NCBI RefSeq assembly: GCF_003790525.1
Contig: NZ_CP033635.1
Source: Escherichia coli
GTDB lineage: Bacteria; Pseudomonadota; Gammaproteobacteria; Enterobacterales; Enterobacteriaceae
Strand: one strand, 5' to 3'
Length of the DNA: 64,000 bases
A program made the translations under genes and the position numbers. Within the stretch, counting starts at the first letter, position 1. Each line of letters opens with the position of its first letter. Shown here piece after piece: positions 1 through 35,686 of this stretch. A model generated the notes under the pieces. That model was given only the letters and a program-made list of their open reading frames with translations, had not been told where the DNA came from and did not search any database.

Positions 1-1338
1 GGTCTGCCCGCACTGTGGGGGATGGTGAGTGGTGCGGTGGGCGCACTTGGCGGGGCGCTGGGTTTTCTGTTAAGTCCGGTGGGCCTTGTGGTGGCGACAC
101 TGGTCGGTGCGGCAGTGCTTATCTGGCGGCACTGGGACCAGCTGAAGGCTGTCGTGGGCGGGTTCTTGTCCGGCCTGTGGCAGGGGCTTACGCCACTGCG
201 CGAGGCTGTGGCACCACTGGGACCGCTGTTTGAGTATGTCGGGCAGACAATCGGGCGTGTGTGGCAGTGGTTCGTGGATTTGTTCGCGCCGGTAAGCACA
301 ACAAAGGATGAGCTGGACAAGTGCACGGAAGCCGGGCGTACGTTCGGGCAGAAGGTAGGGGAGTTTATCAGCAATCTGGTGACCGGTCCGGTTACGCTGC
401 TGATTGACTCATTAACCCGGGTGCTGGAAAAACTCGGGCTGATTCCGTCGGCGGTTGAGCGCGCCCGGAAAAAGGCGGAAGAACTAAAACAGAAGGAGTT
501 GCTGAACGAGAAAGCTGCCATGCTTCTGGCGGATGTTAACGTCATTAATCCGCCGAAAAAGGACGAGGATAAAAAAGACGGCGAAAAACCCAAAGGGGGG
601 CAACCACCCCTGACGGGGGAGAATACCGGCACTATGCGCCGCCTGAACAAAATCGTCGATAACACCGGTGGTCTGCTGGATGAGGCGAAACAGGCGAAAA
701 AACGCGCTGGTCCCGGCGATATTATCTTTAAAAACCTGCCGGAAGCGCTGGCCGTTCGTGGTGAGTGGAAGGAGGAACGCTTTAACCGAGCAGCTTCCCT
801 GTTACCGGGTAGTGTCAGTGAGCCACCTGTCAGACTGCCGCAGGTGCCGTCGGTCAGTGTGCCTTCGTTGCCACCGCTGCCAGCGCCACCGCCTGTCAGT
901 GTTTCGCCGCTGATATCCACCACGGCGAACGTGTCGCCGGTCGTGAAGCCGGTGGTGTCCGTGAATAATGTGCCGGTTATTCCTCCGGTCGTCCGTCCGG
1001 TACTGTCCGGTAATATTACGCCAGTGGTTCCGCCGGTGATCAAACCGGTTATGACTCACGATGTCATGCCGACGTTCTCCCCGCTAATGACACCAGTGAT
1101 GGCGGCAACATCCCGTCCGGTGGTTGAGGCTGTGCGCCAGCCCATATCCCCCGCATCGCCCCGACCGCGCCAGAGTGAGCCGGCACCATGGGGATTAACT
1201 GGCGAACTGCATATTCACCTGCATGATGTTCACACGCAAAACCCGCGCGAACTGGCAAAAATGGTGGGTGATGCCGTCCGTGCGGAAATGGAACGCCGTA
1301 TCCGCCAGACAGTCGGTAGTTTCCGTGACAGAGATTAG
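1..1338 (+). CDS. phage tail tape measure protein, C-terminal part (P2 gpT-like); 5' end outside window
   Basis: Frame is open from base 1; Pro/Val-rich C-terminal region; lies immediately upstream of a gpU-like gene as in P2 T-U; family recognised from memory, no search. Confidence 0.7.
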   Translation, partial: GLPALWGMVSGAVGALGGALGFLLSPVGLVVATLVGAAVLIWRHWDQLKAVVGGFLSGLWQGLTPLREAVAPLGPLFEYVGQTIGRVWQWFVDLFAPVSTTKDELDKCTEAGRTFGQKVGEFISNLVTGPVTLLIDSLTRVLEKLGLIPSAVERARKKAEELKQKELLNEKAAMLLADVNVINPPKKDEDKKDGEKPKGGQPPLTGENTGTMRRLNKIVDNTGGLLDEAKQAKKRAGPGDIIFKNLPEALAVRGEWKEERFNRAASLLPGSVSEPPVRLPQVPSVSVPSLPPLPAPPPVSVSPLISTTANVSPVVKPVVSVNNVPVIPPVVRPVLSGNITPVVPPVIKPVMTHDVMPTFSPLMTPVMAATSRPVVEAVRQPISPASPRPRQSEPAPWGLTGELHIHLHDVHTQNPRELAKMVGDAVRAEMERRIRQTVGSFRDRD

Positions 1339-1349
1339 GAGTACCTCTC

Positions 1350-1838
1350 ATGATGATGATTTACGGCATGTTTGTTTTTGAGTTGCGTACGCTGCCTCAT
1401 CAACAACTGCAACATAATAAAACCTGGCGCCACGTTAAAAATGAACGCATCAATCGTTCGGCCAGCTGGCAGTATATCGGGGCGGGTGACGACCAGATCA
1501 CGTTGTCCGGTGTGCTTTATCCCGAAATTACCGGCGGTGAGGTTTCCCTCAGCCTTTTAACGACGCAGGCTTACACTGGTCGCCCATGGCCGCTGATTGA
1601 CGGTGTGGGGCAGATATACGGCATGTATGTGATAACGGCTGTCCGCACAACGCGAAGCGAACTTGACCGCCACGGTAAGGCCAAAAAAATTGAGTTCACT
1701 GTCAGTCTGGAACGCTGTGATGAGGATTTGCGGGAGAGTATGGCCTCGTCGCCGGTGTCTGATATGCTTTCGGGAATGAAAGGGAAGTTAAGTTCGGTCT
1801 GGAATACCACAGTAAGCGGCGTAAATGATCTGATGTGA
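1350..1838 (+). CDS. phage tail protein U (P2 gpU-like)
   Basis: 162-aa ORF; N-terminal MMMIYGMFVFELRT... and WRHVKNERINRSASWQYIGAGDDQITLSG resemble P2 GpU family; directly follows the tape-measure gene. Confidence 0.75.
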   Translation: MMMIYGMFVFELRTLPHQQLQHNKTWRHVKNERINRSASWQYIGAGDDQITLSGVLYPEITGGEVSLSLLTTQAYTGRPWPLIDGVGQIYGMYVITAVRTTRSELDRHGKAKKIEFTVSLERCDEDLRESMASSPVSDMLSGMKGKLSSVWNTTVSGVNDLM

Positions 1839-2520: not shown

Positions 2521-4754
2521 TAAACTGCCCTCACAATATAATTAAAAGCGATATTGCGCGGTCTGATCGCTATCCATCTGTCTTTTTCATTACTCACCAG
2601 CTTACCGGCTCTGGCTATTGCCCATCTGTCAACTGGTTTTGTGCCGTACAGGATGCCGTTACCGGTTCTGGGTTGATCAGGGGTTATGTTTATGATGTCG
2701 TTATCATGTGATGCAAATGAAATCCCTGCCTGAATATCTGCACCTCCCGCTACGCCGTGGTACGCCTGTATGGCGGTACAAATATATGTTGCTTCCTGTG
2801 TGGATAACAATAAGCGTCCCCTGTCAATCATTCGCAGGTCATCCCATCCACGAATAAATTCCCCGCGCAAATCTGGTAGCCTGAGGTCAGGGTAGGCCAC
2901 CGCCAGTTTTGGGTATTTTGTACGCGTGAATGCGGCACCGTTGCACTGTAACCACCCCTCAGGTGGTCTTGACGAAGGCCACGGAACGGGTACGCCAACT
3001 GGCAGCGTCGAGCCTTCTCCTAAACCAAAGTAATCAAGAATATCTTTTATGCTTTGTTTACCCATGATGACGCGGGCAACAGACGAAAAAACAGGGGCGT
3101 CTGTGATCTGAGCCCAGCGATGAGTGTGGGCTGCCGAGGCTTTGCTGTTGGCAAGGTCATACGCAGCTTTAACAGCTTTTGGTGTGGCCGCCAGCGTTTC
3201 GGAATTGCTGTTTGTGGCGCTGCTTAGCTGTACGATGCCTTTGCGTCCGGTGGTTGCATCCTGTCCTGTATACTTGCTCGTCAGCATATCGTGTAAGGCT
3301 TTAACCGCTTTGGGGGTGGCGGCCTCAGTCTCTGACTCACTGTTTGTGGCACTGCTCAGCTGTACGGTGCCTTTTGCCGTCAGCGAGGCTGATGGCACAC
3401 CTGTTATCTGATTCCACGGGTGGGTGTGGCTGGCGGGTGCTTTACCGGCTGCAAGGTCATATGCAGCCTTGACGGCTCTTGGTGTGGCCGCCAGCGTTTC
3501 GGAATTGCTGTTTGTATCGCTGCTCAGCTGTACGATGCCTTTGCGTCCAGTTGTTGCATCTGTGTTTGTCACCTCCACCCACTCTGACCATGGGCCGTTA
3601 CCGTTAAAGTTTCCGGTAACTGTCCTGATAAATTTTCGTGGCGGATCCCAGCTCGTGTATTCATGCTGGCAGAATCCCCATGCACCAACACGGATGCGTA
3701 ACTCTCCTGCCTTCTCTACAGGATAGTTTCTGTCTGTTCTCGCACCTGAGTCACTCTGCTGGTAATAATCTCCCGCGTCTTCCTTACGCCCCAGAGTGTT
3801 CAGGTCTGTTTCCCCCAGGGATGTTGTTGGCTTCACGAACGCCATGCTCAGTGCATCACTTACTGCCTTCGGTGTGGCCGCCAGTGTTTCGGAATTGCTG
3901 TTTGTGGCGCTGCTCAGCTGTACGATGCCTTTGCGTCCGGTGGTTGCATCCTGTCCTGTATACTTGCTCGTCACCATATCGTGTAAGGCTTTAACCGCTT
4001 TGGGGGTGGCCGCCTCAGTCTCTGACTCACTGTTTGTGGCACTGCTCAGCTGTACGGTGCCTTTTGCCGTCAGCGAGGCTGATGGCACACCAGTTATCTG
4101 ATTCCACGGGTGGGTGTGGCTGGCGGCTGCTTTACCGGCTGCAAGGTCATATGCAGCCTTGACGGCCTTCGGTGTGGCGGCCAGTGTTTCAGAGGTGCTG
4201 TTTGTGGCGCTGCTCAGTTGGGTGAATCCTTTTTCTGTCAGTGTCGCGTCAGGGTGGTTACGGGAACGTGCGTGTTCCGCCATTTTCTCATCAATGTAGT
4301 CCGTGGTCGGCAGAATTGTTGTTGTGTCCATGACCAGTTCCACCACGGCGTCGGAGGTGACGGTGATTACTGCACGGAATATCTGCGCCCGCCCTGAACC
4401 TTCCTCTCTGGTGGGCTTGTAACTTTCAGCGGTATTTCCTACTGCAATCATTGTACCTGTATCATCAAACACACCAATTTCACGCACCCAGAATCCGCCG
4501 GTTTCAGGAGGAATGACCAGTTCGGCGATGAGGCGGTTCGGGTTCTCCGGGTCGGTGAAGACGCGGTTGACAGACTGGCGCCAAACCTCATTGTAAAGCG
4601 ATGTCTGGTTTTTCTGCGGCTGACGAAGCTCTCCATTGCCGTCCCCTACAGCCATGTGCGTAAGGCGTACAGGTCTACCGCCAGGCGCCGTTGTTGCGGC
4701 CAGCTTTGCCAGCCCGATGTCGGTGATAAGGGTTCTGAATTTTCTCGTGCTCAT
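2520..4754 (-). CDS. phage tail fibre protein (P2 gpH-like) with multiple internal repeats
   Basis: 744-aa ORF; motif TGRKGIVQLSSATNS(N/E)SET(L/E)AATPKAVK repeated at least 6 times (phage tail fibre repeat); position between baseplate I and assembly gene. Confidence 0.85.
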   Translation of the reverse strand: MSTRKFRTLITDIGLAKLAATTAPGGRPVRLTHMAVGDGNGELRQPQKNQTSLYNEVWRQSVNRVFTDPENPNRLIAELVIPPETGGFWVREIGVFDDTGTMIAVGNTAESYKPTREEGSGRAQIFRAVITVTSDAVVELVMDTTTILPTTDYIDEKMAEHARSRNHPDATLTEKGFTQLSSATNSTSETLAATPKAVKAAYDLAAGKAAASHTHPWNQITGVPSASLTAKGTVQLSSATNSESETEAATPKAVKALHDMVTSKYTGQDATTGRKGIVQLSSATNSNSETLAATPKAVSDALSMAFVKPTTSLGETDLNTLGRKEDAGDYYQQSDSGARTDRNYPVEKAGELRIRVGAWGFCQHEYTSWDPPRKFIRTVTGNFNGNGPWSEWVEVTNTDATTGRKGIVQLSSDTNSNSETLAATPRAVKAAYDLAAGKAPASHTHPWNQITGVPSASLTAKGTVQLSSATNSESETEAATPKAVKALHDMLTSKYTGQDATTGRKGIVQLSSATNSNSETLAATPKAVKAAYDLANSKASAAHTHRWAQITDAPVFSSVARVIMGKQSIKDILDYFGLGEGSTLPVGVPVPWPSSRPPEGWLQCNGAAFTRTKYPKLAVAYPDLRLPDLRGEFIRGWDDLRMIDRGRLLLSTQEATYICTAIQAYHGVAGGADIQAGISFASHDNDIINITPDQPRTGNGILYGTKPVDRWAIARAGKLVSNEKDRWIAIRPRNIAFNYIVRAV
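3181..3480. repeat. ~300-bp direct repeat unit, copy 1, inside tail fibre gene
   Basis: Near-identical to 3871-4170 (690 bp downstream) by direct comparison of the sequence lines; partial further copies begin at 3481 and 4171. Confidence 0.8.
3871..4170. repeat. ~300-bp direct repeat unit, copy 2, inside tail fibre gene
   Basis: Near-identical to 3181-3480; only a few substitutions seen. Confidence 0.8.
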
Positions 4755-6213: not shown

Positions 6214-6564
6214 TTACTCCCTCAGGGTGATACTGAATGTGATGTTCTGCATGGTTTCGGTGATGATGCCGGATAACGTCACCACGGCGCGTCCGCCAGC
6301 CCGCCAGTTCACATCGACGTTCTGCAGTGCTATACGGGGTTCATGGCGCGCCAGCGCAGTCACCGTGGCGCTCATGCACTGTAAACGCGTGGTGTCGTTC
6401 ATGGGCTCGTCGATGAGGTCCGGTAACAGGCTGCCGTATTCGCGGCGCATCACCCGGCTGCCTGGCGGTGTGGTCAGGATATCCCGCACGCTGTTTTTCA
6501 GGTGTTCGCTGTCGCTCAGCGTGCCGGTTCCCTGCGGGTTCATCCCCCTGTAAACAGCGGTCAT
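6214..6564 (-). CDS. phage baseplate protein W (gpW/gp25-like)
   Basis: ORF 6214-6729; start placed at internal Met (MTAVYRGM...) giving ~116 aa, overlapping the V stop; P2 synteny. Confidence 0.75.
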   Translation of the reverse strand: MTAVYRGMNPQGTGTLSDSEHLKNSVRDILTTPPGSRVMRREYGSLLPDLIDEPMNDTTRLQCMSATVTALARHEPRIALQNVDVNWRAGGRAVVTLSGIITETMQNITFSITLRE

Positions 6565-7142
6565 TGCGGGCCTCCCGTGGTGCCCGGGCCCGTCCTGACG
6601 CCACCGTGGGTGTGCGTATGAACGGTGATACCGTTGGATGTCAGGCTGCCGCCGCTGTGGGATATGCTGCCGCGCATCTCGCCGCCGTTCTGCACCTCCA
6701 GGGTGGCGGTGATAAGTTTGCGGGTACACACCACCTCCGACGTGTCCAGGGTGATGCGCGTGTCGGCCTGAATGCTGGCTGTTTTAATCCCCTTAACCTC
6801 CAGTGCACCGGCGTCTGCATCGTAGCGGAATACCGCACCGTCCGGTGCTGTCATGATGATTTCCTTCAGTGTGCTGCCCGGTGCCGGGATATCATCGCTC
6901 CAGAGGCTGCCGATGATTATCGCGGTTTCGGGATTACCACCGATACAGACGAACGCCACCTGTTCACCGGTGGCTGGCGGCACCCAGACACTGAACGCGC
7001 CCGCCCGCGCGGTGCTCCAGCGAAGCCAGCCTGTCTCCAGTCCGCCACTGCGCACCCGGACCTCCCAGGTCTGCGGGTTCACGTCGAAAATCACGCCGGT
7101 TCTGATGATGTTGCTGATAAGGCGCATTAATTCCGCGTTCAT
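6561..7142 (-). CDS. phage baseplate assembly protein V (spike, P2 gpV-like)
   Basis: 193-aa ORF; Gly-rich C-terminus; between S and W. Confidence 0.75.
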   Translation of the reverse strand: MNAELMRLISNIIRTGVIFDVNPQTWEVRVRSGGLETGWLRWSTARAGAFSVWVPPATGEQVAFVCIGGNPETAIIIGSLWSDDIPAPGSTLKEIIMTAPDGAVFRYDADAGALEVKGIKTASIQADTRITLDTSEVVCTRKLITATLEVQNGGEMRGSISHSGGSLTSNGITVHTHTHGGVRTGPGTTGGPQ

Positions 7143-7795
7143 GCCACAGCCCTCGCGATATTGTCCATAATGATACGCTGAATAAGTCGTTCATCTGCCG
7201 GTGTTATTCCAAGAAGTTCACGGGCCGGATAATCCGTATACATCCCTGCGGCCACCCGGTCGCGCTCCCCGAACTGGTGAACGCGGGCAATGCGTGCCGC
7301 CACGCCGCTGTAGCCCACCGTCACGCCTGATGCGTCCGCCTTCACTTTCAGATAACGGGCCGTGCGCAGCTTCGCAAACATCGGCACCGTTTTTGTGGTG
7401 TCACGGTTGATGCGGCGTGTCCTGATTTCAAGGAAACGGAGGATATCACTCCGGTAAAAGGTACGTATGCCGCTCCGGTCTTCATCCCAGCCGGTGATGG
7501 TCTGGCCGTATTTTCCTGAACCGTGATGCCAGTTTTTCAGGGTGCGGTTCTGGTTTTGCCAGATAAAGCTGATGCGCTCCTGAAGGCGTGATATACGGCG
7601 TTTACGGCGTGTCCACACCGAACCGTCCGGCGCTTTCTGGGCGCGCATCCGGCTCTGGTTCACGCGCCGCAGCTCCTTACCCACATGCGCGGCAATGCGC
7701 TTCACTGCCTGCGGGCTGGTTGCCAGCCGGATATTGACAAACATGTTACTCATTCCTTCAGCGGGAACGAGGTTACGGTATCTCAGTTTCCCCAT
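7139..7795 (-). CDS. phage virion morphogenesis / tail completion protein (P2 gpS-like); start uncertain
   Basis: ORF 218 aa, longer than P2 S; internal Met candidates near 7753; position between R and V. Confidence 0.65.
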   Translation of the reverse strand: MGKLRYRNLVPAEGMSNMFVNIRLATSPQAVKRIAAHVGKELRRVNQSRMRAQKAPDGSVWTRRKRRISRLQERISFIWQNQNRTLKNWHHGSGKYGQTITGWDEDRSGIRTFYRSDILRFLEIRTRRINRDTTKTVPMFAKLRTARYLKVKADASGVTVGYSGVAARIARVHQFGERDRVAAGMYTDYPARELLGITPADERLIQRIIMDNIARAVA

Positions 7796-7810: not shown

Positions 7811-8275
7811 TTATCCGGTGACAATGTTCCACGTCACATCCTCCAGAATGTGTGACCAGTCGCCGTCCTGCGGGATGCGTGATTTCGGCTCCGGTAGATG
7901 TTCTGTCATGAGGGTGCCGTCATCCCTGCGGGTGACGCGCACGCGTTCACGTAACGGCAGCTCAAACAGCACGTCCGCGCTGTCGTCGTCGTTAATGGCC
8001 GCCGTGAACTGAATATCGTTGTTGCGCTCAGGATTAAGCAGCAACTGCGGCTGGTTCTCTGCCAGCCAGACAATCAGTGGAAGCGTCAGGTTGTCCAGAT
8101 CGCCCGTGTAGTCCATCACGAACATCACCAGCCGGTAGTTGTACACGAACGTCGGCGTCTCGCCGGTGGTCTCTATCCCGCCACGTTCAATGAACACGGT
8201 GAACTTTTCCGGGTTGGCCCTGCACCACCGGCACGCTGTACTCATGTGTGTGCTCAGGGATTTACTTTTCAGCAT
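7811..8275 (-). CDS. phage tail completion protein (P2 gpR-like)
   Basis: ORF 7811-8359; start at internal Met gives ~154 aa, matching gpR size; position after the lysis cassette. Confidence 0.7.
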   Translation of the reverse strand: MLKSKSLSTHMSTACRWCRANPEKFTVFIERGGIETTGETPTFVYNYRLVMFVMDYTGDLDNLTLPLIVWLAENQPQLLLNPERNNDIQFTAAINDDDSADVLFELPLRERVRVTRRDDGTLMTEHLPEPKSRIPQDGDWSHILEDVTWNIVTG

Positions 8276-12377: not shown

Positions 12378-13214
12378 TCAGTAGTCAGCCAGTTGTCTGG
12401 ACTGCCCGCCGGTTGCCGTAAAACGACTTTCCTGATCAGCGTCCAGTCCGCGCAGTCTGTTTTTCAGCTCTGCCAGCTCAGTGGACAGGGTGGCGATTTT
12501 CTGTCTGTCTGCCTGATGGCGCGATTCCAGTGCACTGAAGCGGTCGAGAAGGTCGGCATGCGATGAGGCTATCCCCTCAACGGCGTCATGAATGCGGGAG
12601 AACCGGGTGTCGTCAGCCCTGCGTCCTCGCCCAATCATGTTCATCACGCGGTTAAGCCACTGCGCACCTTCCTCGCTGCGGCGCTCCGTCAGTTCGATCA
12701 CTTCAGCCTCAATGGCGTCAGAGAACATCGGTGCTTCCGTCTGCTGATTATTGAAGGTCATGACCGAACGGCGCTGCTGCAGGGCGAACTGAAGACGCTC
12801 CGTGCCGATGCTTGCCGGGGTGTCTGTCATGGCAAGGCCAATAAGATACGGGGTGCCCGTAGGGGTGAAATTTCGTGCCAGCTCAATACTGGAGTAAATT
12901 TTCTTACCCCGGGAGACCAGATTTTTCATGCGGTCGGTGGGTTCGATTTCCGCATACAGCGCAGTACGACCGACCAGCGGACCTTCGGTGATTTCTTCTG
13001 TGCTCAGTGCCGTCACATCACCCATGGCGGAAAATTCACTGGACGGAACCGGTGAAAGCCAGTGCTCCACGTTCACGCGTGCGCCGTAAATCTCAGGGTT
13101 GAAGTTACTGGCCGCCGCGCGCAAATCTGCGGCACTGATTTCGCGACCGTCTGCGGTGGGACCGGAAACGGCCACGCGGAATGTTTTACGGGATGTTTTT
13201 TTCTGTTCAGGCAT
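12378..13214 (-). CDS. phage capsid scaffolding protein (P2 gpO-like)
   Basis: ORF 12378-13355; start at internal Met (MPEQKKTSRK...) gives ~279 aa; divergent from terminase gene as in P2. Confidence 0.8.
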   Translation of the reverse strand: MPEQKKTSRKTFRVAVSGPTADGREISAADLRAAASNFNPEIYGARVNVEHWLSPVPSSEFSAMGDVTALSTEEITEGPLVGRTALYAEIEPTDRMKNLVSRGKKIYSSIELARNFTPTGTPYLIGLAMTDTPASIGTERLQFALQQRRSVMTFNNQQTEAPMFSDAIEAEVIELTERRSEEGAQWLNRVMNMIGRGRRADDTRFSRIHDAVEGIASSHADLLDRFSALESRHQADRQKIATLSTELAELKNRLRGLDADQESRFTATGGQSRQLADY

Positions 13215-13285
13215 TGTCGGGCCCTCGTGATGATCGTTTGTCTCATGATGGCAAAACGGGGCAGGGACAGACAAAGTGCGTTTGT

Positions 13286-13303
13286 TGTAAGCGAATGCCG
13301 ACA
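13286..13303. promoter_or_regulatory. TGT-N12-ACA dyad in the O/P divergent late promoter region (possible Ogr-type activator site)
   Basis: TGTAAGCGAATGCCGACA read directly, ~66 bp upstream of the P start; P2 late promoters are known to carry this dyad. Confidence 0.3.
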
Positions 13304-13368
13304 ACACCGGGCATGGCAGGAGGCCTGTAAGGGGTGAGTAAACTGCCTGAATCACATGAGGGGGAGAA

Positions 13369-15120
13369 ATGATTCAGGATACATTTGTTCGCCAGCGGGC
13401 ACGCCAGCTGTACTGGCAGGGTTACCCTGTTGCGGAAATTTCCCGCCTTATGGGTATCAACCAGAACACGATCCATTCGTGGAAAAAACGCGACCAGTGG
13501 GATGAGACGCCCCCGGTTCAGCGTGTCACGCAGTCCATGGATGCGCGACTCATTCAGCTCACGGAAAAACAGAATAAAACAGGCGGGGACTTTAAGGAAA
13601 TTGATTTGCTGACCCGTCAGCTTAAAAAGCTGCATGACGGTCTGCCGGATGAGACGGCAACAGGAAAGAAAGGCCGGGCGAAAAAACACAAAAATCATTT
13701 CACGCCGGAACAGATCGCGGCGCTGCGGGAAAAAATTACCGACAGGCTGGCCGGACACCAGCGCAAATGGCTTGATGCTATCGGTGCCTGTGAGCGTGCC
13801 GGAATTACTGACAGGATGATCCTGAAATCCCGCCAGATTGGGGCGACCTGGTATTTTGCGCAGGAAGCGCTGCTGATGGCGCTGCGTGACGATGTGGCAC
13901 AACCTTACCAGCGTAACCAGATTTTTTTGTCTGCGTCTCGTCGTCAGGCGCTCCAGTTTAAAAGCATTATTCAGAAGGCTGCATCTGAAGTTGATGTGGA
14001 ACTGAAAGGGGGCGATAAAGTCATCCTCTCCAACGGTGCAGAGCTGCATTTTCTCGGCACTTCTGCGGCCACCGCGCAAGCGTACACAGGGAATCTGTAT
14101 TTTGATGAGTTTTTCTGGACGGGGCGTTTCGCAGAGCTGCGCAAGGTGGCTGCTGCTATGGCAACGCTGGATGGTTTGCGGTGTACCTATTTTTCCACGC
14201 CATCAAGTGAAACACATGAGGCGTATGCATACTGGAACGGCGATCACTGGAATGAAGGGCTTCGTACTCATAAACGTCAGCATTTTGATGTGAGCTGGAA
14301 TGCGCTTCATAACGGCCTTATCTGTCCTGACTATATCTGGCGGCAAATTGTGACGCTGGAAGATGTGGTCAGTCAGGGATGGACGTTAACCAACATTGAC
14401 AAAATCCGGCGCAATAACACTGAAGACGAGTTCCGCAATCTCTACATGTGTGAATTTGCTCGCGAAGGGGAATCGGCATTTAACCTGAATATCCTGATTG
14501 GCTGCGGTGTTGACGGATACGACGAGTGGCCGGACTGGAAGCCGTTTGCACCGCGTCCGATGGGGAACCGCCCTGTGTGGATTGGGTACGACGCCAACGG
14601 CAGTAGCGGGAACGGTGACAGCGGGGCGGTTGTCGTGGTGGTGCCGCCAGCCGTACCGGGCGGGCGTTTTCGCACCGTGGAGACGCGGCGGGTGCAGGGG
14701 CTGGAGTTTGAGGCGCAGGCGAAGGTGATTGAAGAGTTCACCTTTCGCTATAACGTTGAGCATATCGGTATTGACGTAACCGGCGGTCACGGGGATGCGG
14801 TGTATCAGATTGTGAAGCGCTTTTTTCCGGCAGCCATTCCCTACACCTTCACCCTGTCATCAAAGCGCACGCTGGTTCTGAAGATGCTGCAGCTCATGCG
14901 CGCCGGGCGGTGGGAGTACGACCGCAGCGAGCGCGAACTGGTGAGCGCCTTTAACGCGGTACGCAAAACAAAAACGCAGGCCGGATTTATCACCTACGAA
15001 ACAGATCGCGCAAGAGGCGTAAGCCATGGCGATCTTGCATGGGCCACCATGCTGGCCGTTATCAACGAACCTGTCGGCGGTGAACATGATGCCGCCCCCT
15101 TCAGTGTTACGGAGTTCTGA
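13369..15120 (+). CDS. phage terminase large (ATPase) subunit (P2 gpP-like)
   Basis: 583-aa ORF, divergent from O, followed by portal gene. Confidence 0.85.
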   Translation: MIQDTFVRQRARQLYWQGYPVAEISRLMGINQNTIHSWKKRDQWDETPPVQRVTQSMDARLIQLTEKQNKTGGDFKEIDLLTRQLKKLHDGLPDETATGKKGRAKKHKNHFTPEQIAALREKITDRLAGHQRKWLDAIGACERAGITDRMILKSRQIGATWYFAQEALLMALRDDVAQPYQRNQIFLSASRRQALQFKSIIQKAASEVDVELKGGDKVILSNGAELHFLGTSAATAQAYTGNLYFDEFFWTGRFAELRKVAAAMATLDGLRCTYFSTPSSETHEAYAYWNGDHWNEGLRTHKRQHFDVSWNALHNGLICPDYIWRQIVTLEDVVSQGWTLTNIDKIRRNNTEDEFRNLYMCEFAREGESAFNLNILIGCGVDGYDEWPDWKPFAPRPMGNRPVWIGYDANGSSGNGDSGAVVVVVPPAVPGGRFRTVETRRVQGLEFEAQAKVIEEFTFRYNVEHIGIDVTGGHGDAVYQIVKRFFPAAIPYTFTLSSKRTLVLKMLQLMRAGRWEYDRSERELVSAFNAVRKTKTQAGFITYETDRARGVSHGDLAWATMLAVINEPVGGEHDAAPFSVTEF

Positions 15121-16175
15121 TGAGCAGAAAAAATAAACAACGACGTACGAACGCCCGCGCAGCGCAGGGCAGCCTTGCGGATTCCCTGCGAAGCGACCCG
15201 ACACTGAGTGCCTTCACGTTTGAAGGACCTTACCGGCTGTCAGGGGCCGACCTGCTGGACAGCATGTACTGCGCCGACAACGGGCGGTGGTTTGAAACGC
15301 CCGTTGACTGGTACGGACTGGCACGGGCTGCCCGCCAGACGTCCTGGCACCAGTCGGCGCTCAGCTTCAAACGTAATGTGCTGCTGGGCTGCTATATTCC
15401 ACATCCTCTGCTGTCCCGCCAGGAGTTCGCCGGGGTGGCGATGGACTGGTTTGTGTTCGGTAATGCCTGTCTTGAGCTGCGGCGCAACATGCTTGGCGAA
15501 CCGCTGGCCCTGCGCCGGGCGCTGGCGAAATACATGCGACGTGGCAGCGATATGAAATCATGGTGGTATATACAGGAAGGACAGGAAGAGTACCGCTTTC
15601 GTGAGGGGACGATATGCCACCTGATGAATCCTGATATCAACCAGGAGATTTACGGGATGCCGGATTACCTGGGCGGCCTGCTGTCTGCCAGCCTGTCACA
15701 TTCCGCCGATATCTTCCGCAAGCTCTACTACGATAACGGCTCACACGCGGGCTGTATTGTCTACATCGGTGCGGCGCAGGTTGACCGTGAAAGCATGGAA
15801 AAACTGCGGGAAACACTGCAAAGCGCGCGTGGTGGCGGGGCGTTTAAAAATCTGCTCATCCACGCGGCGGGAGGTGGTAAGGATGGCGTACAGATTTTGC
15901 CGTTTCAGCAAATCACCGCAAAGGATGAGTTCATGAACGTCAAGGCTGCATCGCGTGATGATGTGCTGTCCGTGCACCGTGTACCGCCGCAGCTGATGGG
16001 GGCCATGCCGGGTGAGAAGGGGTCATTCGGGGATGTGGAGAAGGCAGCCCGTGTGTTTGCCATTAACGAACTGATGCCCGTCATGGAAGCAATGAAACAC
16101 GTCAACGACTGGCTGGGCGAAGAGGTGATCCGTTTTAACCCTTACGCACTGTTAGACACCCAGCCCATATCCTGA
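15120..16175 (+). CDS. phage portal protein (P2 gpQ-like)
   Basis: 351-aa ORF with start overlapping the P stop; P2 Q-P-O arrangement. Confidence 0.85.
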   Translation: MSRKNKQRRTNARAAQGSLADSLRSDPTLSAFTFEGPYRLSGADLLDSMYCADNGRWFETPVDWYGLARAARQTSWHQSALSFKRNVLLGCYIPHPLLSRQEFAGVAMDWFVFGNACLELRRNMLGEPLALRRALAKYMRRGSDMKSWWYIQEGQEEYRFREGTICHLMNPDINQEIYGMPDYLGGLLSASLSHSADIFRKLYYDNGSHAGCIVYIGAAQVDRESMEKLRETLQSARGGGAFKNLLIHAAGGGKDGVQILPFQQITAKDEFMNVKAASRDDVLSVHRVPPQLMGAMPGEKGSFGDVEKAARVFAINELMPVMEAMKHVNDWLGEEVIRFNPYALLDTQPIS

Positions 16176-16225: not shown

Positions 16226-16241
16226 GACTCTCCAGCTCTGC

Positions 16242-16955
16242 TTAACGAAGTGCTGATGGCGCTCGCTTTTTCAGGTGATTAGCGATGTGCTTTTTCATGT
16301 GCATAACAACATCGCCCCAGGCTTCTTCGCTGGGTTTATTGATAAATACGCGAACAGAAATATCGTCTTCCACCCGGACTCTCAGAGACACCCGTTCCGC
16401 ATCTACTGAATATAATTCAAGTGCAATAACCACGCTTACCGGGTAGCTGCTGTCAGATGACTTAACCCAGGTTCGCACGGCCATGCGGAAAATATTGTCT
16501 GGTGCAGATGCGATATTGTGGACTGAAAGAGGACTAAAATCCGCCGCTGTCTTACATGGCAAGCCTGTCTCCACGTAGCGGTGCAGGTCGCCATCATCGT
16601 CTTCCCAGTACATGGATGGAAGCCCCAGCCATTCTTCATAGAAATCAATCAGCCTTGCCGCTTCATCCCGCAAAATTTGAGCTGCCTCAGCGCGTTTTTC
16701 TTCAGCTTCACGATTGATCTGGCATAAATCATTAAAGTGGCTCATGACATTATCCTCTTTTGAGTTGATGCCTGCCGCTATTCTGACTTTGCCCGGGTTC
16801 TCCTGCAAGCTGGTTATTCCTTCAGATAATTTCACAACATCTCCAACCTTGTAGCCATCATCGCCGGGCGGATGCTTACGCAACCCCGCAACTCTGACGA
16901 CATATTCTCGCTGCCTCAGTGCGATTTTGACGGCCTTATCTTTCACCCCCATCAA
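16242..16955 (-). CDS. hypothetical protein, stand-alone cargo gene at the P2 tin/old-equivalent position; start ambiguous
   Basis: Open frame with normal codon usage; the listed first codon is TTG with ATG as codon 2 (16950-16952); an internal ATG at 16745 has a strong AAGAGGA Shine-Dalgarno; GC lower than the late genes; no family recognised. Confidence 0.55.
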   Translation of the reverse strand: MMGVKDKAVKIALRQREYVVRVAGLRKHPPGDDGYKVGDVVKLSEGITSLQENPGKVRIAAGINSKEDNVMSHFNDLCQINREAEEKRAEAAQILRDEAARLIDFYEEWLGLPSMYWEDDDGDLHRYVETGLPCKTAADFSPLSVHNIASAPDNIFRMAVRTWVKSSDSSYPVSVVIALELYSVDAERVSLRVRVEDDISVRVFINKPSEEAWGDVVMHMKKHIANHLKKRAPSALR

Positions 16956-17171
16956 ATCAAGCTTTTACGTCTTTTTTACGCTCAGCGTGAGAAATACAGC
17001 CATTCTGTTGTGTCGCTGCAACATCGTTCAGGGAATGCTATTTACCCCCTGAAACGCGGGCTGTTCCCCCGTCACCTGCGCGCAGAAAAAGGCCTTTTTT
17101 CGTGCACGCACGGATCCCCGACGGATCCAGACGCCACACGGGCCGGAAGGGCAAAAAGTCGTTCAAAAAAA

Positions 17172-17198
17172 TTGTGCAAATTTGTGCACTATTGTGCA
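17172..17198. repeat. three direct TTGTGCA repeats at exact 10-bp spacing
   Basis: attgtgcaaa / tttgtgcact / attgtgcatt read directly; immediately beside the terminator of the upstream operon. Confidence 0.6.
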
Positions 17199-17205
17199 TT
17201 GAAAT

Positions 17206-22012: not shown

Positions 22013-22332
22013 GGTGTGGCCTCTGTAGTTGCAAGTTTTGAAAACTCACCATCCAGAGGTTGCAATTCTGGGTGGCGAGACGTACAGGGTTGCAACCACC
22101 GGCAACTACAGAAACCGGCCCGACCGAAGTCGGCCCCATACGCCCCGCCATAATTCTGGCGCGAAAAAGACGTGGCGATACGGTACGCACAAAAAAACCG
22201 CTGGCGCGGTTGTGCGCTGTAGTTGTCAGCGGGGGTTGCAATCCCGGCACCCGTTTTATGAGGTGCAGCGGAAATGTAACCTGACTGATTGCGGCATGGC
22301 AAGCGGTTTTTTTGTGTGTGCATAGTGGTTAC
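22013..22332. repeat. non-coding region with iteron-like CTGTAGTTG / GGTTGCAA repeats
   Basis: GGTTGCAA-type motif at about 22027, 22059, 22089, 22235; CTGTAGTTG at about 22023 and 22218, with its reverse complement at about 22103; all read directly. Confidence 0.6.
22191..22211 (-). terminator. rho-independent terminator inside the iteron region
   Basis: Minus strand reads AACCGC-GCCA-GCGGTT followed by T7. Confidence 0.5.
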
Positions 22333-26682: not shown

Positions 26683-27687
26683 GTGCTGATCATGTCGATT
26701 AAGCAACTCAAAGACGGACGTTATCAGGTTGATGTAAGGCCTCAGGGGGCGGGAGGAAGGCGGATTCGTAAGATTTTCACCCTGAAATCAAAGGCGCAGG
26801 AATTCGAAAGATACGTTCTTCAGAATTTCCACAATAACCCGTGGCAGGCAAGGCCCGCCGATCAACGGCGGTTATCAGAACTGATTGAGGTGTGGTGGAT
26901 GCTTGATGGTCGTAATCAGGCATATGGTGATACCTACAGAACCAGACTGGAGAAGGTGATACGTGAAATGGGGGACCCGCGCGCCAGCCAGATGACACGA
27001 AAATTCGTGATTGAGTATCGCTCGGATAAGTTGCAGGCGGGACTGATGCCGTCCAGTATCAATCGCGACCTGTGCGCCTTATCTGCGATGTTTTCGTTGT
27101 TAATTGACGCGGAGGTTTATCATAACGAAAACCCTGTGCGCGGAATACGTAAACTCAAGGTTCAGAATACAGAAATGGCCTTTCTTTCAGATGACGAGAT
27201 TGATCGCCTTCTGAAACGGCTTGAGGGTGATGCACGACGCATTGCCATTCTGTGCCTTTCGACCGGGGCCAGATGGAAAGAGGCGTCAACGCTTCGCGGG
27301 GAACACATCGTGGGTAACAGGGTGACGTTCTTTAACACAAAGAACGGGAAATCGCGCTCGGTTCCTGTAGCTGATTCCGTTGTGCCGTTAATTAAAACCC
27401 GCCGGACCGGCCTGTTATATCAGGTTGATTATCTCAGTTTCAGGGAGATCCTTCAGGAGGTGAAGCCCGACTTACCCAAAGGGCAGGCCACGCATGTCAT
27501 GCGGCACACGTTCGCCACGCATTTCATGATGAACGGCGGGAACATCGTCACGTTGCAGAGGATCCTGGGTCACGCCACGATTCAGCAAACGATGACGTAT
27601 GCGCATTTTTCACCGGACTTTTTACAGGATGCGATCAGCTTTAATCCGCTGGCTGAAAGTGTCCATAAACTGTCCATCGACCAGTAA
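26683..27687 (+). CDS. int: tyrosine integrase (P2 Int-like)
   Basis: 334-aa ORF; C-terminal HxxRHT and Y motifs (ATHVMRHTFATH ... MTYAHF); terminal position in the prophage. Confidence 0.85.
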   Translation: MLIMSIKQLKDGRYQVDVRPQGAGGRRIRKIFTLKSKAQEFERYVLQNFHNNPWQARPADQRRLSELIEVWWMLDGRNQAYGDTYRTRLEKVIREMGDPRASQMTRKFVIEYRSDKLQAGLMPSSINRDLCALSAMFSLLIDAEVYHNENPVRGIRKLKVQNTEMAFLSDDEIDRLLKRLEGDARRIAILCLSTGARWKEASTLRGEHIVGNRVTFFNTKNGKSRSVPVADSVVPLIKTRRTGLLYQVDYLSFREILQEVKPDLPKGQATHVMRHTFATHFMMNGGNIVTLQRILGHATIQQTMTYAHFSPDFLQDAISFNPLAESVHKLSIDQ

Positions 27688-27799
27688 TTATTTGTGATAA
27701 TTTGCTCCCCTTGTTTTTGTTTACTTATTGAAAAATAAGGAAATCAGCAAGAGGAGTAAGTACCGTTAAATCTCCTGCGGGCGCTTTTTTTGTCTCCCT
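27688..27799. other. putative prophage-chromosome junction (att region); core not identified
   Basis: Non-coding stretch between the int stop and the dmsA FNR site; the other prophage end is outside the window. Confidence 0.3.
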
Positions 27800-27813
27800 T
27801 TGATACCGAACAA
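27800..27813 (+). promoter_or_regulatory. FNR binding site of the dmsA promoter
   Basis: TTGAT-ACCG-AACAA read directly, matching the FNR consensus TTGAT-N4-ATCAA; dmsABC is FNR-activated. Confidence 0.5.
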
Positions 27814-27983
27814 TAATTACTCCTCACTTACACGTAATACTACTTTCGAGTGAAAATCTACCTATCTCTTTGATTTTCAAATTATTCGATATATACAAGC
27901 CTATATAGCGACCTGCTATAGAAATAATTACACAATACGGTTTGTTACTGGAATCAATCGTGAGCAAGCTTGAGTGAGCCATT

Positions 27984-34255: not shown

Positions 34256-35686
34256 ATGGCTGGGAATGTTCAGGAAAAACAGCTGCGATGGTACAACATT
34301 GCGCTGATGTCTTTTATCACTGTCTGGGGTTTTGGCAACGTTGTTAATAACTACGCCAACCAGGGGCTGGTGGTTGTTTTTTCATGGGTGTTTATCTTTG
34401 CGCTCTATTTCACACCTTATGCGCTAATTGTTGGTCAGTTAGGCTCGACCTTCAAAGATGGGAAGGGCGGGGTCAGTACCTGGATTAAACACACGATGGG
34501 ACCCGGACTGGCTTACCTCGCCGCGTGGACCTACTGGGTAGTGCATATTCCCTATCTGGCACAAAAACCCCAGGCAATACTGATTGCGCTCGGTTGGGCG
34601 ATGAAAGGCGACGGTTCGTTAATCAAAGAATATTCAGTCGTAGCGTTACAGGGGTTAACGCTGGTGCTGTTTATCTTCTTTATGTGGGTTGCTTCACGCG
34701 GTATGAAATCGCTGAAAATCGTCGGTTCTGTGGCAGGGATTGCGATGTTTGTTATGTCGCTCCTGTATGTGGCGATGGCGGTAACCGCGCCTGCGATTAC
34801 TGAAGTGCATATTGCGACCACAAACATTACCTGGGAAACGTTCATTCCTCATATCGACTTTACCTACATCACCACTATTTCAATGCTGGTTTTCGCGGTT
34901 GGCGGAGCAGAGAAGATTTCTCCTTACGTTAATCAAACGCGCAACCCAGGAAAAGAATTTCCAAAAGGGATGTTATGCCTGGCGGTGATGGTTGCGGTTT
35001 GTGCCATTCTGGGCTCGCTGGCGATGGGGATGATGTTTGATTCGCGTAATATCCCGGATGACTTAATGACTAACGGTCAGTATTACGCCTTTCAGAAACT
35101 GGGCGAGTATTACAACATGGGTAATACTTTAATGGTGATTTACGCCATTGCGAATACCCTGGGACAAGTAGCTGCGCTGGTATTCTCGATTGATGCGCCG
35201 CTTAAAGTACTATTAGGCGATGCTGATAGCAAATATATTCCAGCCAGTTTATGTCGTACCAACGCTTCTGGTACGCCCGTTAATGGCTATTTTCTGACCC
35301 TGGTGCTGGTGGCGATCCTGATTATGCTGCCGACGCTGGGTATCGGCGATATGAATAATCTCTACAAGTGGTTGCTGAATCTTAACTCGGTGGTGATGCC
35401 ACTACGTTATCTGTGGGTATTTGTTGCATTTATTGCAGTCGTTCGTCTGGCGCAGAAATATAAACCAGAGTATGTCTTTATTCGTAACAGGCCGCTGGCG
35501 ATGACTGTCGGGATCTGGTGTTTTACCTTTACCGCTTTTGCCTGCCTGACAGGGATCTTCCCGAAAATGGAAGCCTTCACTGCAGAGTGGACCTTCCAGT
35601 TAGCGCTGAATGTTGCAACGCCGTTTGTCCTGGTTGGACTGGGGCTGATATTCCCGCTGCTGGCGCGTAAAGCGAATAGTAAATAA
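34256..35686 (+). CDS. ycaM: APC-family amino acid transporter YcaM
   Basis: ORF 34064-35686; start placed at MAGNVQEKQL (476 aa). Confidence 0.85.
   Translation: MAGNVQEKQLRWYNIALMSFITVWGFGNVVNNYANQGLVVVFSWVFIFALYFTPYALIVGQLGSTFKDGKGGVSTWIKHTMGPGLAYLAAWTYWVVHIPYLAQKPQAILIALGWAMKGDGSLIKEYSVVALQGLTLVLFIFFMWVASRGMKSLKIVGSVAGIAMFVMSLLYVAMAVTAPAITEVHIATTNITWETFIPHIDFTYITTISMLVFAVGGAEKISPYVNQTRNPGKEFPKGMLCLAVMVAVCAILGSLAMGMMFDSRNIPDDLMTNGQYYAFQKLGEYYNMGNTLMVIYAIANTLGQVAALVFSIDAPLKVLLGDADSKYIPASLCRTNASGTPVNGYFLTLVLVAILIMLPTLGIGDMNNLYKWLLNLNSVVMPLRYLWVFVAFIAVVRLAQKYKPEYVFIRNRPLAMTVGIWCFTFTAFACLTGIFPKMEAFTAEWTFQLALNVATPFVLVGLGLIFPLLARKANSK

What the first reader, a model, noticed from the sequence alone, without database searches (positions are those of the whole stretch)
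13215..13368. Divergent late promoter region with a TGT-N12-ACA dyad but no activator gene in the window
A dyad matching the Ogr/Delta-type activator site lies upstream of the terminase gene. The ogr-like activator, expected beyond D at the far prophage end, is not in this window. Together with the inverted tail block, this raises the question of whether late gene activation is intact.
Basis: partly seen in the sequence, partly recalled or inferred. Interest (0 to 1): 0.25.

Follow-up and report, generated by a model that had tools for sequence, protein, structure and literature searches.

The report
Ordinary P2-type shared late-promoter dyad
The gap between the head-scaffold gene and the terminase gene of a P2-like prophage holds one perfect inverted repeat that is very probably the binding site of the phage's Ogr-type late activator for both diverging promoters. 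The activator gene is simply cut off by the window edge, so this is an ordinary, apparently intact arrangement.

Summary
The 154-bp gap (13215-13368) between gpO (12378-13214, -) and terminase gpP (13369-15120, +) contains TGT-N12-ACA at 13286-13303. It is in fact a perfect 6-bp-arm dyad, TGTTGT-N12-ACAACA (13283-13306). The bare motif is not enriched (14 found, 16 expected). The perfect 24-mer is expected only 0.003-0.02 times per 64 kb. Its ACAACA half is invariant and fixed in position in 35 of the 36 distinct upstream sequences examined (P2 is the exception). Its geometry copies P2, where one annotated activator site lies 55.5 bp from both the pP and pO start sites. No ogr gene is in the window. 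The window starts inside the tape-measure gene, so the prophage's far end is missing. In the near-identical copies located in complete E. coli genomes (26 at 99% or more), an intact Ogr/Delta zinc-finger gene follows D, about 5.6-5.9 kb left of window position 1. The "inverted tail block" is the normal gene order of this lineage (Xuanwuvirus, P88-like; P88 is a plaque-forming phage). It has its own perfect TGTTGT-N12-ACAACA dyad between D and FI. Nothing suggests that late activation is broken. Verdict: an ordinary member of a known promoter class, of low interest.

The parts
13283..13306 (.). Perfect dyad TGTTGT-N12-ACAACA (core TGT-N12-ACA at 13286-13303, centre 13294.5). Proposed single binding site for the Ogr-family activator, shared by both diverging late promoters.
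   Evidence: sequence and rarity. (conserved position; ACAACA half invariant in all relatives except P2). (same geometry as the site annotated in the P2 record).
13339..13344 (+). Predicted -10 hexamer TAAACT of the pP-like promoter. The inferred start site is near 13350, 55.5 bp from the dyad centre, giving a leader of about 19 nt to the gpP ATG.
   Evidence: Anchored comparison with P2 pP: TAGCCT sits at the same offset and the annotated start site is 55.5 bp from the centre. The hexamer is conserved as TAAnCT/TAATCT in relatives. The start site is inferred, not measured.
13244..13253 (-). Invariant block TGCCATCATG, read as an extended -10 (TGc CATCAT, hexamer 13245-13250) of the pO-like promoter. 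The inferred start site is near 13239, giving a leader of about 25 nt to the gpO ATG.
   Evidence: The block is invariant across all 13 diverged sequences aligned. Its offset from the dyad fits a -55/-56 geometry. The start site is inferred.
13215..13368 (.). The whole 154-bp divergent gpO/gpP intergenic control region. It has no sigma-70-type -35/-10 promoter match, as expected for activator-dependent promoters.
   Evidence: 0 promoter-like sites in 13100-13500. for the boundaries.
12378..13214 (-). gpO capsid scaffold/protease gene, the first gene of the leftward late operon (O N M L X holin lysozyme lysB/C R S V W J I H G, running down to 1909).
   Evidence: Annotation of near-identical prophages and the blast hits.
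13369..16175 (+). gpP terminase large subunit (13369-15120) and gpQ portal (15120-16175), the rightward late operon.
22..1838 (+). Last 438 codons of the tape-measure gene T (22-1338; the open frame continues upstream of window position 1) and gene U (1350-1838). This is the window's share of the FI-FII-E-T-U block, which is inverted relative to P2. Its promoter, D and ogr all lie left of the window.
   Evidence: window position = L004 position - 12000; T is one open frame of 1103 aa in L004.

Best explanation
The region is the bidirectional late control region of a P88-like (Xuanwuvirus) P2-family prophage inserted between serS and dmsA of E. coli. One symmetric site, TGTTGT-N12-ACAACA, centred at 13294.5, is bound by the prophage's Ogr-family zinc-finger activator. 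From about 55 bp upstream of each start site, the bound activator recruits RNA polymerase to two weak promoters that lack a -35 element. These fire outwards: pP-like (-10 TAAACT, start near 13350, terminase and portal) and pO-like (extended -10 TGcCATCAT, start near 13239, scaffold, capsid, small terminase, lysis, baseplate and tail fibres). The activator gene is not missing from the phage. It follows gene D about 5.6-5.9 kb to the left of the window's first base. D, ogr and the inverted FI-U tail block are served by a second, identical dyad between D and FI. What is shown: the sequence, its rarity, its conservation, its P2-like geometry, the presence of ogr in near-identical prophages, and the lineage-wide gene order. 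What is inferred: binding by Ogr, the start sites, and the presence of ogr in this particular genome.
For: (1) The perfect 12/12 dyad is expected 0.003-0.02 times per 64 kb and is found exactly in the gpO/gpP gap. (2) The P2 GenBank record annotates ONE 'activator binding site; pO, pP promoters' at 3057-3087, with start sites at 3016 (-) and 3127 (+). That puts the centre, 3071.5, 55.5 bp from both. The window's -10-like hexamers sit at the same offsets. (3) The P-proximal half-site TGTTGT and the N12 spacing are identical to P2. P2's own sites are weaker: TGTTGT-N12-CCATCC at pP/pO, and no annotated P2 site is a perfect TGT-N12-ACA. (4) Among 36 distinct upstream sequences (34 unique IMG/VR relatives, one group of which includes the window, plus P88 and P2), the best dyad match lies 80.5-85.5 bp from the gpO ATG in every one except the most diverged relative (L084) and P2. 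In the alignment the ACAACAA half and the two -10 blocks are invariant or nearly invariant in all aligned relatives, including L084, while the flanking DNA diverges. (5) There is no constitutive sigma-70 promoter match in the gap. (6) A second perfect TGTTGT-N12-ACAACA lies between the diverging D and FI genes of the near-identical prophage. Its ACAACA half keeps its position in nearly all of the 80 related loci. (7) An 83-aa protein matching Pfam Ogr_Delta (E 4.9e-14; 42% identical to P2 Ogr, E 7e-15) follows D in all 30 complete E. coli genomes that hold this ogr-D-FI stretch, 26 of them at 99% identity or more. (8) P88 has the same gene order and an unannotated ogr (71% identical), is mitomycin-inducible and forms plaques (PMC5285337).
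Against: No transcription start site, binding assay or expression data exist for this prophage, so the -55 geometry rests on -10 predictions. The best-matching complete genome (TUM1886) still differs from the window by 7 SNPs in the prophage. The source genome itself was therefore not seen, and ogr there is inferred. The bare TGT-N12-ACA motif is not enriched. No separate pV-type site was found upstream of V, so the operon structure differs from P2 in ways not resolved here.
Confidence: 0.85

Rival explanations
1. The prophage is defective in late activation. Either ogr has been lost or damaged in this particular genome, or the inversion of the tail block uncoupled tail genes from Ogr control.
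For: ogr cannot be seen in the window. PGAP flags the tape-measure gene as a pseudogene in two near-identical prophages. The exact source genome is not in the collection.
Against: All 30 complete E. coli genomes holding this ogr-D-FI stretch carry an annotated ogr after D, 26 of them at 99% identity or more. The tape-measure frame is open for 1103 aa, so the pseudogene flag does not reflect a frameshift or stop. The inversion is lineage-wide: 80 of 80 loci, plus P88 and phage 520873. It has its own perfect dyad. P88 has this order and is viable. All late ORFs in the window are open at the lengths annotated for the near-identical prophages.
Confidence: 0.05
2. The dyad is functional but works differently from P2. 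It might be bound by another protein, or it might serve only one of the two promoters, or it might act at a different distance (for example -45).
For: The conserved block TGCCATCATG resembles P2's TGCCGACATG, which in P2 overlaps the pO start site. If the two are homologous, the pO-like start would lie about 45 bp from the dyad rather than 55. In P88-like relatives the P-proximal half is degenerate (TGTTCT or GGGTCT) while the O-proximal ACAACA is invariant. This hints at unequal use of the two halves.
Against: Read as an extended -10 (TGnCATCAT), the same block gives -55/-56, matching P2. The P side matches P2 within 1 nt. The same dyad recurs at the other late control region of the same phage, which also encodes an Ogr-family protein. 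The E. coli CRP consensus (TGTGA-N6-TCACA, i.e. N10 between TGT and ACA; from established knowledge) does not fit the N12 spacing.
Confidence: 0.07
3. The dyad is a chance inverted repeat with no regulatory role.
For: TGT-N12-ACA occurs 14 times in the window against 16 expected. One other copy, inside gene R at 8107-8124, is not conserved.
Against: The perfect 6-bp-arm version is expected about 0.003-0.02 times per 64 kb. It sits in the one gap where P2 has its site. It is conserved in position across relatives. It is duplicated at the D/FI gap.
Confidence: 0.03

Closest known systems
Bacteriophage P2 pP/pO divergent late promoters with their single shared Ogr binding site (P2 record NC_001895, features at 3016, 3057-3087 and 3127)
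   Same: It lies between the same two genes (terminase P and scaffold O, diverging). There is one dyad with N12 spacing and an identical P-proximal half, TGTTGT. The centre is about 55.5 bp from -10-defined start points on both sides. There is no -35 element. An Ogr-family activator is encoded after gene D.
   Different: The window's site is a perfect palindrome (12/12), whereas P2's is TGTTGT-N12-CCATCC (9/12). The gap is 154 bp against 173 bp, with a shorter O leader (about 25 nt against 40 nt). Outside the half-site and the -10 elements, the sequences are essentially unalignable.
P2 pF and pV late promoters; the Ogr/Delta activator family (P2 Ogr; by established knowledge also 186 B, P4 delta, PSP3 Pag, phiR73 delta and Serratia NucC)
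   Same: The same class of activator-dependent promoter. The cognate protein matches Pfam Ogr_Delta and keeps the four zinc-binding cysteines.
   Different: This lineage's protein is 83-87 aa with CX2C-X24-CX4C, against 72 aa and X22 in P2, and has a different C-terminal tail. No pV-type promoter gap exists, because S and V overlap. The pF-type dyad is shared with a diverging D gene, whereas in P2 D is the last gene of the F operon.
Escherichia phage P88 and other Xuanwuvirus members (Peduoviridae)
   Same: The gene order is the same, including the inverted FI-FII-E-T-U block and D followed by ogr. Dyads occupy the same two gaps, and there is a cos-adjacent TGT-N12-ACA.
   Different: Nucleotide identity is only about 78%. 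P88's dyads are imperfect (11/12 and 10/12). This prophage lacks P88's invertase and alternative tail-fibre segment. It also carries an extra ~583 bp that turns a 42-aa ORF into a 236-aa orphan gene next to cos.

Membership tests
P2-family Ogr/Delta-dependent late promoter | Region of dyad symmetry TGT-N12-ACA upstream of the promoter | tested here: met
   13286-13303, extended to perfect TGTTGT-N12-ACAACA. It is closer to the idealised consensus than any of the sites annotated in the P2 record.
P2-family Ogr/Delta-dependent late promoter | Dyad centred about 55 bp upstream of the transcription start | tested here: inconclusive
   No start site is known here. The -10-like hexamers (TAAACT at 13339-13344; CATCAT at 13245-13250 on the - strand) sit at the offsets seen in P2, whose annotated start sites are 55.5 bp from the site centre. 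Start-site mapping is needed.
P2-family Ogr/Delta-dependent late promoter | Weak core promoter without a recognisable -35 element (activator-dependent) | tested here: met
   0 sigma-70-type promoter matches in 13100-13500.
P2-family Ogr/Delta-dependent late promoter | Position at the head of morphogenetic operons (P-Q and O-N-M-L...) | tested here: met
   The site lies in the gap between gpO and gpP and is homologous in position to the P2 site.
P2-family Ogr/Delta-dependent late promoter | Cognate Ogr/Delta zinc-finger activator encoded by the same element | tested here: inconclusive
   It is absent from the window. It is present after D in all 30 complete E. coli genomes that hold this ogr-D-FI stretch, 26 of them at 99% identity or more (Pfam PF04606, E 4.9e-14). 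The window's own genome left of position 1 could not be read.
P2-family Ogr/Delta-dependent late promoter | Transcription requires the activator and its contact with the RNA polymerase alpha subunit | not testable with these tools
   This requires genetics or in vitro transcription.
Xuanwuvirus (P88-like) prophage | P2-type late gene set with the FI-FII-E-T-U block inverted and D-ogr transcribed divergently from FI | tested here: met
   FI is divergent from D in 80 of 80 related loci. Nucleotide identity to the named members is about 78%, so species-level membership was not assessed.
CRP (cAMP receptor protein) binding site | TGTGA-N6-TCACA, i.e. 10 bp between the TGT and ACA triplets | tested here: not met
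   The spacing here is 12 bp and the flanking bases are TGTTGT/ACAACA. The CRP consensus is from established knowledge.

The most novel reading that the evidence does not exclude
In this lineage the whole late programme may run from just two bidirectional Ogr-dependent control regions (O<->P and D<->FI), each with one shared palindrome and with no pV-type promoter. A third TGT-N12-ACA conserved across the lineage lies next to cos (17006-17023). It could make a small accessory gene a late, Ogr-controlled gene. That gene is 42 aa in P88 and is extended here to an orphan 236-aa protein with no Pfam or PADLOC match. It would be a late-expressed cargo gene at a variable hotspot.
Probability: 0.25. 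Interest if true: 0.3.

Novelty: new member of a known kind. Interest (0 to 1): 0.1.

Why it matters
It matters little beyond annotation. It shows that this widespread E. coli prophage type uses the classical P2 late switch and looks regulatorily intact. DNA similar to this 601-bp stretch (mostly 60-80% identical, P88-like) is present in 770 of 5426 complete E. coli genomes. The exact variant is present in about 25. The analysis also corrects two traps. An activator that is 'missing' from a window may be missing only because of where the window was cut. A gene-block inversion relative to the type phage need not be damage. The one mildly useful point is that a symmetric activator site allows an inverted block to gain a bidirectional promoter at no cost. 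This may explain how the FI-U inversion was tolerated.

Tried and rejected
(1) The bare TGT-N12-ACA count as evidence was rejected because it is not enriched. (2) The MAFFT alignment with P2 inserts a 16-nt gap inside the dyad. I treated this as an alignment artefact and used dyad-anchored comparison instead. (3) Homology of TGCCATCATG with P2's TGCCGACATG would imply a -45 geometry. I kept this only as a minor rival. (4) An internal pV-type site: the only candidate, 8107-8124 inside R, is not conserved in P88, and no match of 10/12 or better lies near S or V. (5) The 9-nt inverted repeat around the gpP start codon (13346-13354 / 13370-13378) as a translational hairpin: folding is not better than shuffles (z -1.04), and the left arm would be half outside the predicted transcript. 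(6) The tape-measure 'pseudogene' flagged by PGAP: the frame is open for 1103 aa. (7) Identifying the exact source genome: the best match (TUM1886) has 7 SNPs in the prophage and a more divergent flank, so the source is not in the collection. (8) A sigma-70 promoter for ogr: the scan found none upstream. By eye there are two TAAAAT hexamers about 34-40 nt before the ATG, at a position like that of the -10 signal annotated in the P2 record. This was not tested. (9) Primary papers on Ogr/Delta binding (for example PMC177091) are not held. I used the P2 GenBank features and a secondary citation (PMC3931495) instead. (10) P88 gp53 as an ogr candidate was rejected: it has no Ogr_Delta match. The real P88 ogr is unannotated at 34476-34724.

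Full report
WHAT IS THERE. The window is E. coli chromosome carrying a P2-like prophage that ends with int at 26683-27687, just before dmsA (27984). The finding's coordinates are exact. The scaffold gene gpO runs 12378-13214 on the minus strand. The large terminase gene gpP starts at 13369 on the plus strand and is followed by portal gpQ. The 154 bp between them are non-coding. TGT-N12-ACA is at 13286-13303. It is actually a perfect palindrome with 6-bp arms, TGTTGT-N12-ACAACA, at 13283-13306.

IS IT MORE THAN CHANCE? The three-base motif alone is not: 14 copies in the window against 15.99 +/- 3.17 in shuffles. The perfect 12-position version is expected 0.003 times (analytic) to 0.02 times (Markov simulation) per 64 kb, and it occurs once in the window. 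I compared 36 distinct upstream sequences: 34 unique IMG/VR relatives of gpO (one group of which includes the window), plus P88 and P2. The best dyad match lies 80.5-85.5 bp from the gpO ATG in all except the most diverged relative (L084) and P2, whose site lies 95.5 bp away. The P88-like majority reads TGTTCT-N12-ACAACA (11/12). In an alignment of 13 diverged representatives, the ACAACAA half-site and the block TGCCATCATG are invariant, and the block GTAAnCT..CCTG is nearly invariant. The DNA between them drifts. This is a phylogenetic footprint.

The P2 GenBank record annotates a single 'activator binding site; pO, pP promoters' at 3057-3087. The P-operon start is at 3016 (-) and the O-operon start at 3127 (+). 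The P2 site reads TGTTGT-N12-CCATCC, with its centre at 3071.5, which is 55.5 bp from both starts. In the window, anchoring on the dyad puts TAAACT (13339-13344) within 1 nt of the offset of P2's pP -10 hexamer TAGCCT. This predicts a start near 13350. On the other side, the invariant TGcCATCAT (an extended -10 on the minus strand, hexamer 13245-13250) predicts a start near 13239. The P-proximal half-site and the N12 spacing are identical to P2. None of the sites annotated in the P2 record is a perfect TGT-N12-ACA: pF is TGT-N12-CCA and pV has an 11-bp spacer. The window's site is therefore closer to the idealised consensus (quoted in PMC3931495) than P2's own. No sigma-70 -35/-10 pair is found in the gap, as expected for activator-dependent promoters. 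The start sites and the binding itself remain inferences.

THE 'MISSING' ACTIVATOR. No Ogr homologue is in the window. The best tblastn E-value is 0.26, and no six-frame CxxC...C(2-4)C match falls in an Ogr-like position (the two matches are in dmsB and on the strand opposite the tail-fibre gene H). However, the window begins inside the tape-measure gene. Near-identical prophages, also inserted between serS and dmsA, occur in about 25 complete E. coli genomes. In strain 135 and in TUM1886 (7 SNPs from the window across the prophage) the order to the left is FI-FII-E-E'-T (plus strand), then D and an 'ogr/Delta-like zinc finger family protein' on the minus strand. The ogr gene lies at L004 6114-6365, which is 5.6-5.9 kb left of window position 1. 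The protein is 83 aa, matches Pfam Ogr_Delta (E 4.9e-14) and is 42% identical to P2 Ogr (E 7e-15). Its cysteine spacing is CX2C-X24-CX4C. All 30 genomes holding this ogr-D-FI stretch annotate the gene, 26 of them at 99% identity or more. I could not read the source genome itself.

THE 'INVERTED TAIL BLOCK'. Phage P88 (Xuanwuvirus) is the closest named relative, at about 78% nucleotide identity. It has the same layout: H and G on one strand, FI-FII-E-T-U on the other, and D diverging from FI. It has an unannotated ogr 71% identical to this one directly after D. P88 is mitomycin-inducible, forms plaques and has a burst size of about 65 (PMC5285337). In all 80 IMG/VR loci related through gpD, FI diverges from D. 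The D/FI gap of the near-identical prophage carries a second perfect TGTTGT-N12-ACAACA (L002 13870-13893; L004 7565-7588). It lies 76.5 bp from the D ATG and 85.5 bp from the FI ATG. Its ACAACA half keeps its position in nearly all of the 80 loci. The inverted block therefore has its own bidirectional, Ogr-type control region. A symmetric site works in both directions, which plausibly made the inversion harmless. That last step is inference. The tape-measure gene, flagged as a pseudogene by PGAP, is one open frame of 1103 aa. I see no sign that late activation is impaired.

DIFFERENCES FROM P2. Genes S and V overlap, so there is no pV-type gap and no good dyad there. O to G may be a single 11.3-kb operon. 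In about half of the relatives no ogr lies within 700 bp after D, and AT-rich cargo sits there instead. In phage 520873 a cargo gene separates D from ogr by 990 bp. The D-ogr junction therefore appears to be a variable spot. In this prophage ogr follows D directly.

VERDICT. This is a genuine, conserved, P2-type shared activator site in an apparently intact prophage. It is a new member of a known kind and of low interest. The most novel reading left open is a third TGT-N12-ACA conserved across the lineage next to cos (17006-17023), upstream of an orphan 236-aa gene. This could be an additional late promoter, but the whole cos region is conserved, so conservation alone does not show function.

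Noticed in passing
window 17006-17023 (with the gene at 16242-16952, - strand): A second non-coding TGT-N12-ACA in the prophage (TGTTGTGTCGCTGCAACA). It lies 62.5 bp upstream of the ATG of an orphan 236-aa gene with no Pfam or PADLOC match, and about 40 bp from the probable cos site. The TGT..ACA triplets are kept in about 70 of 76 relatives, but the whole cos region is conserved. In P88 only a 42-aa ORF (gp22) corresponds to the first ~45 aa; the window has ~583 bp extra (16239-16821). It is possibly a fifth Ogr-type promoter driving a cargo gene.
   Followed up: partly
window 17170-17200: Three direct repeats of TTGTGCA spaced 10-11 bp apart, just beyond the probable cos site. Immediately after them, related phages diverge completely. 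This marks the boundary of a variable-cargo hotspot, and the repeats may be a terminase or other protein binding array.
   Followed up: no
window 22068-22155 (-), 22191-22266 (-) and 27759-27893 (-): Rfam matches above the gathering score: C4 antisense RNA (80 bits) and isrK (60 bits) side by side in the prophage early region, between a DNA-binding-protein gene and small ORFs. This suggests a P1/P7-type C4-controlled antirepressor module. STnc130 sRNA (127 bits) lies between int and dmsA.
   Followed up: no
window 13346-13354 / 13370-13378: A perfect 9-nt inverted repeat (CCTGAATCA / TGATTCAGG) brackets the Shine-Dalgarno sequence and start codon of gpP. RNA folding is not better than shuffles (z -1.04), and the left arm straddles the predicted start site.
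   Followed up: yes
L004 10027-13338 (window ..-1338): PGAP marks the tape-measure gene as an incomplete pseudogene in strains TUM1886 and 135, yet it is one open frame of 1103 aa. Its middle part does not match P88's 935-aa protein.
   Followed up: partly
L176 1740-2450 and 38 other loci; L245 (phage 520873) 35487-37286: In about half of the related phages ogr does not directly follow D. AT-rich cargo, with a reverse-strand gene in L176 and a 132-aa hypothetical in phage 520873, is inserted between D and ogr. The D-ogr junction looks like a cargo hotspot.
   Followed up: partly
window 6561-7795: Genes S (7139-7753) and V (6561-7142) overlap. No pV-type intergenic promoter or dyad exists, unlike in P2. 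The only nearby TGT-N12-ACA (8107-8124, inside R) is not conserved in P88.
   Followed up: yes
L001 (P88, NC_026014) 34476-34724 (+): P88's RefSeq annotation lacks its ogr gene. An open frame 71% identical to this prophage's Ogr homologue lies directly after D (tblastn E 1e-39).
   Followed up: yes
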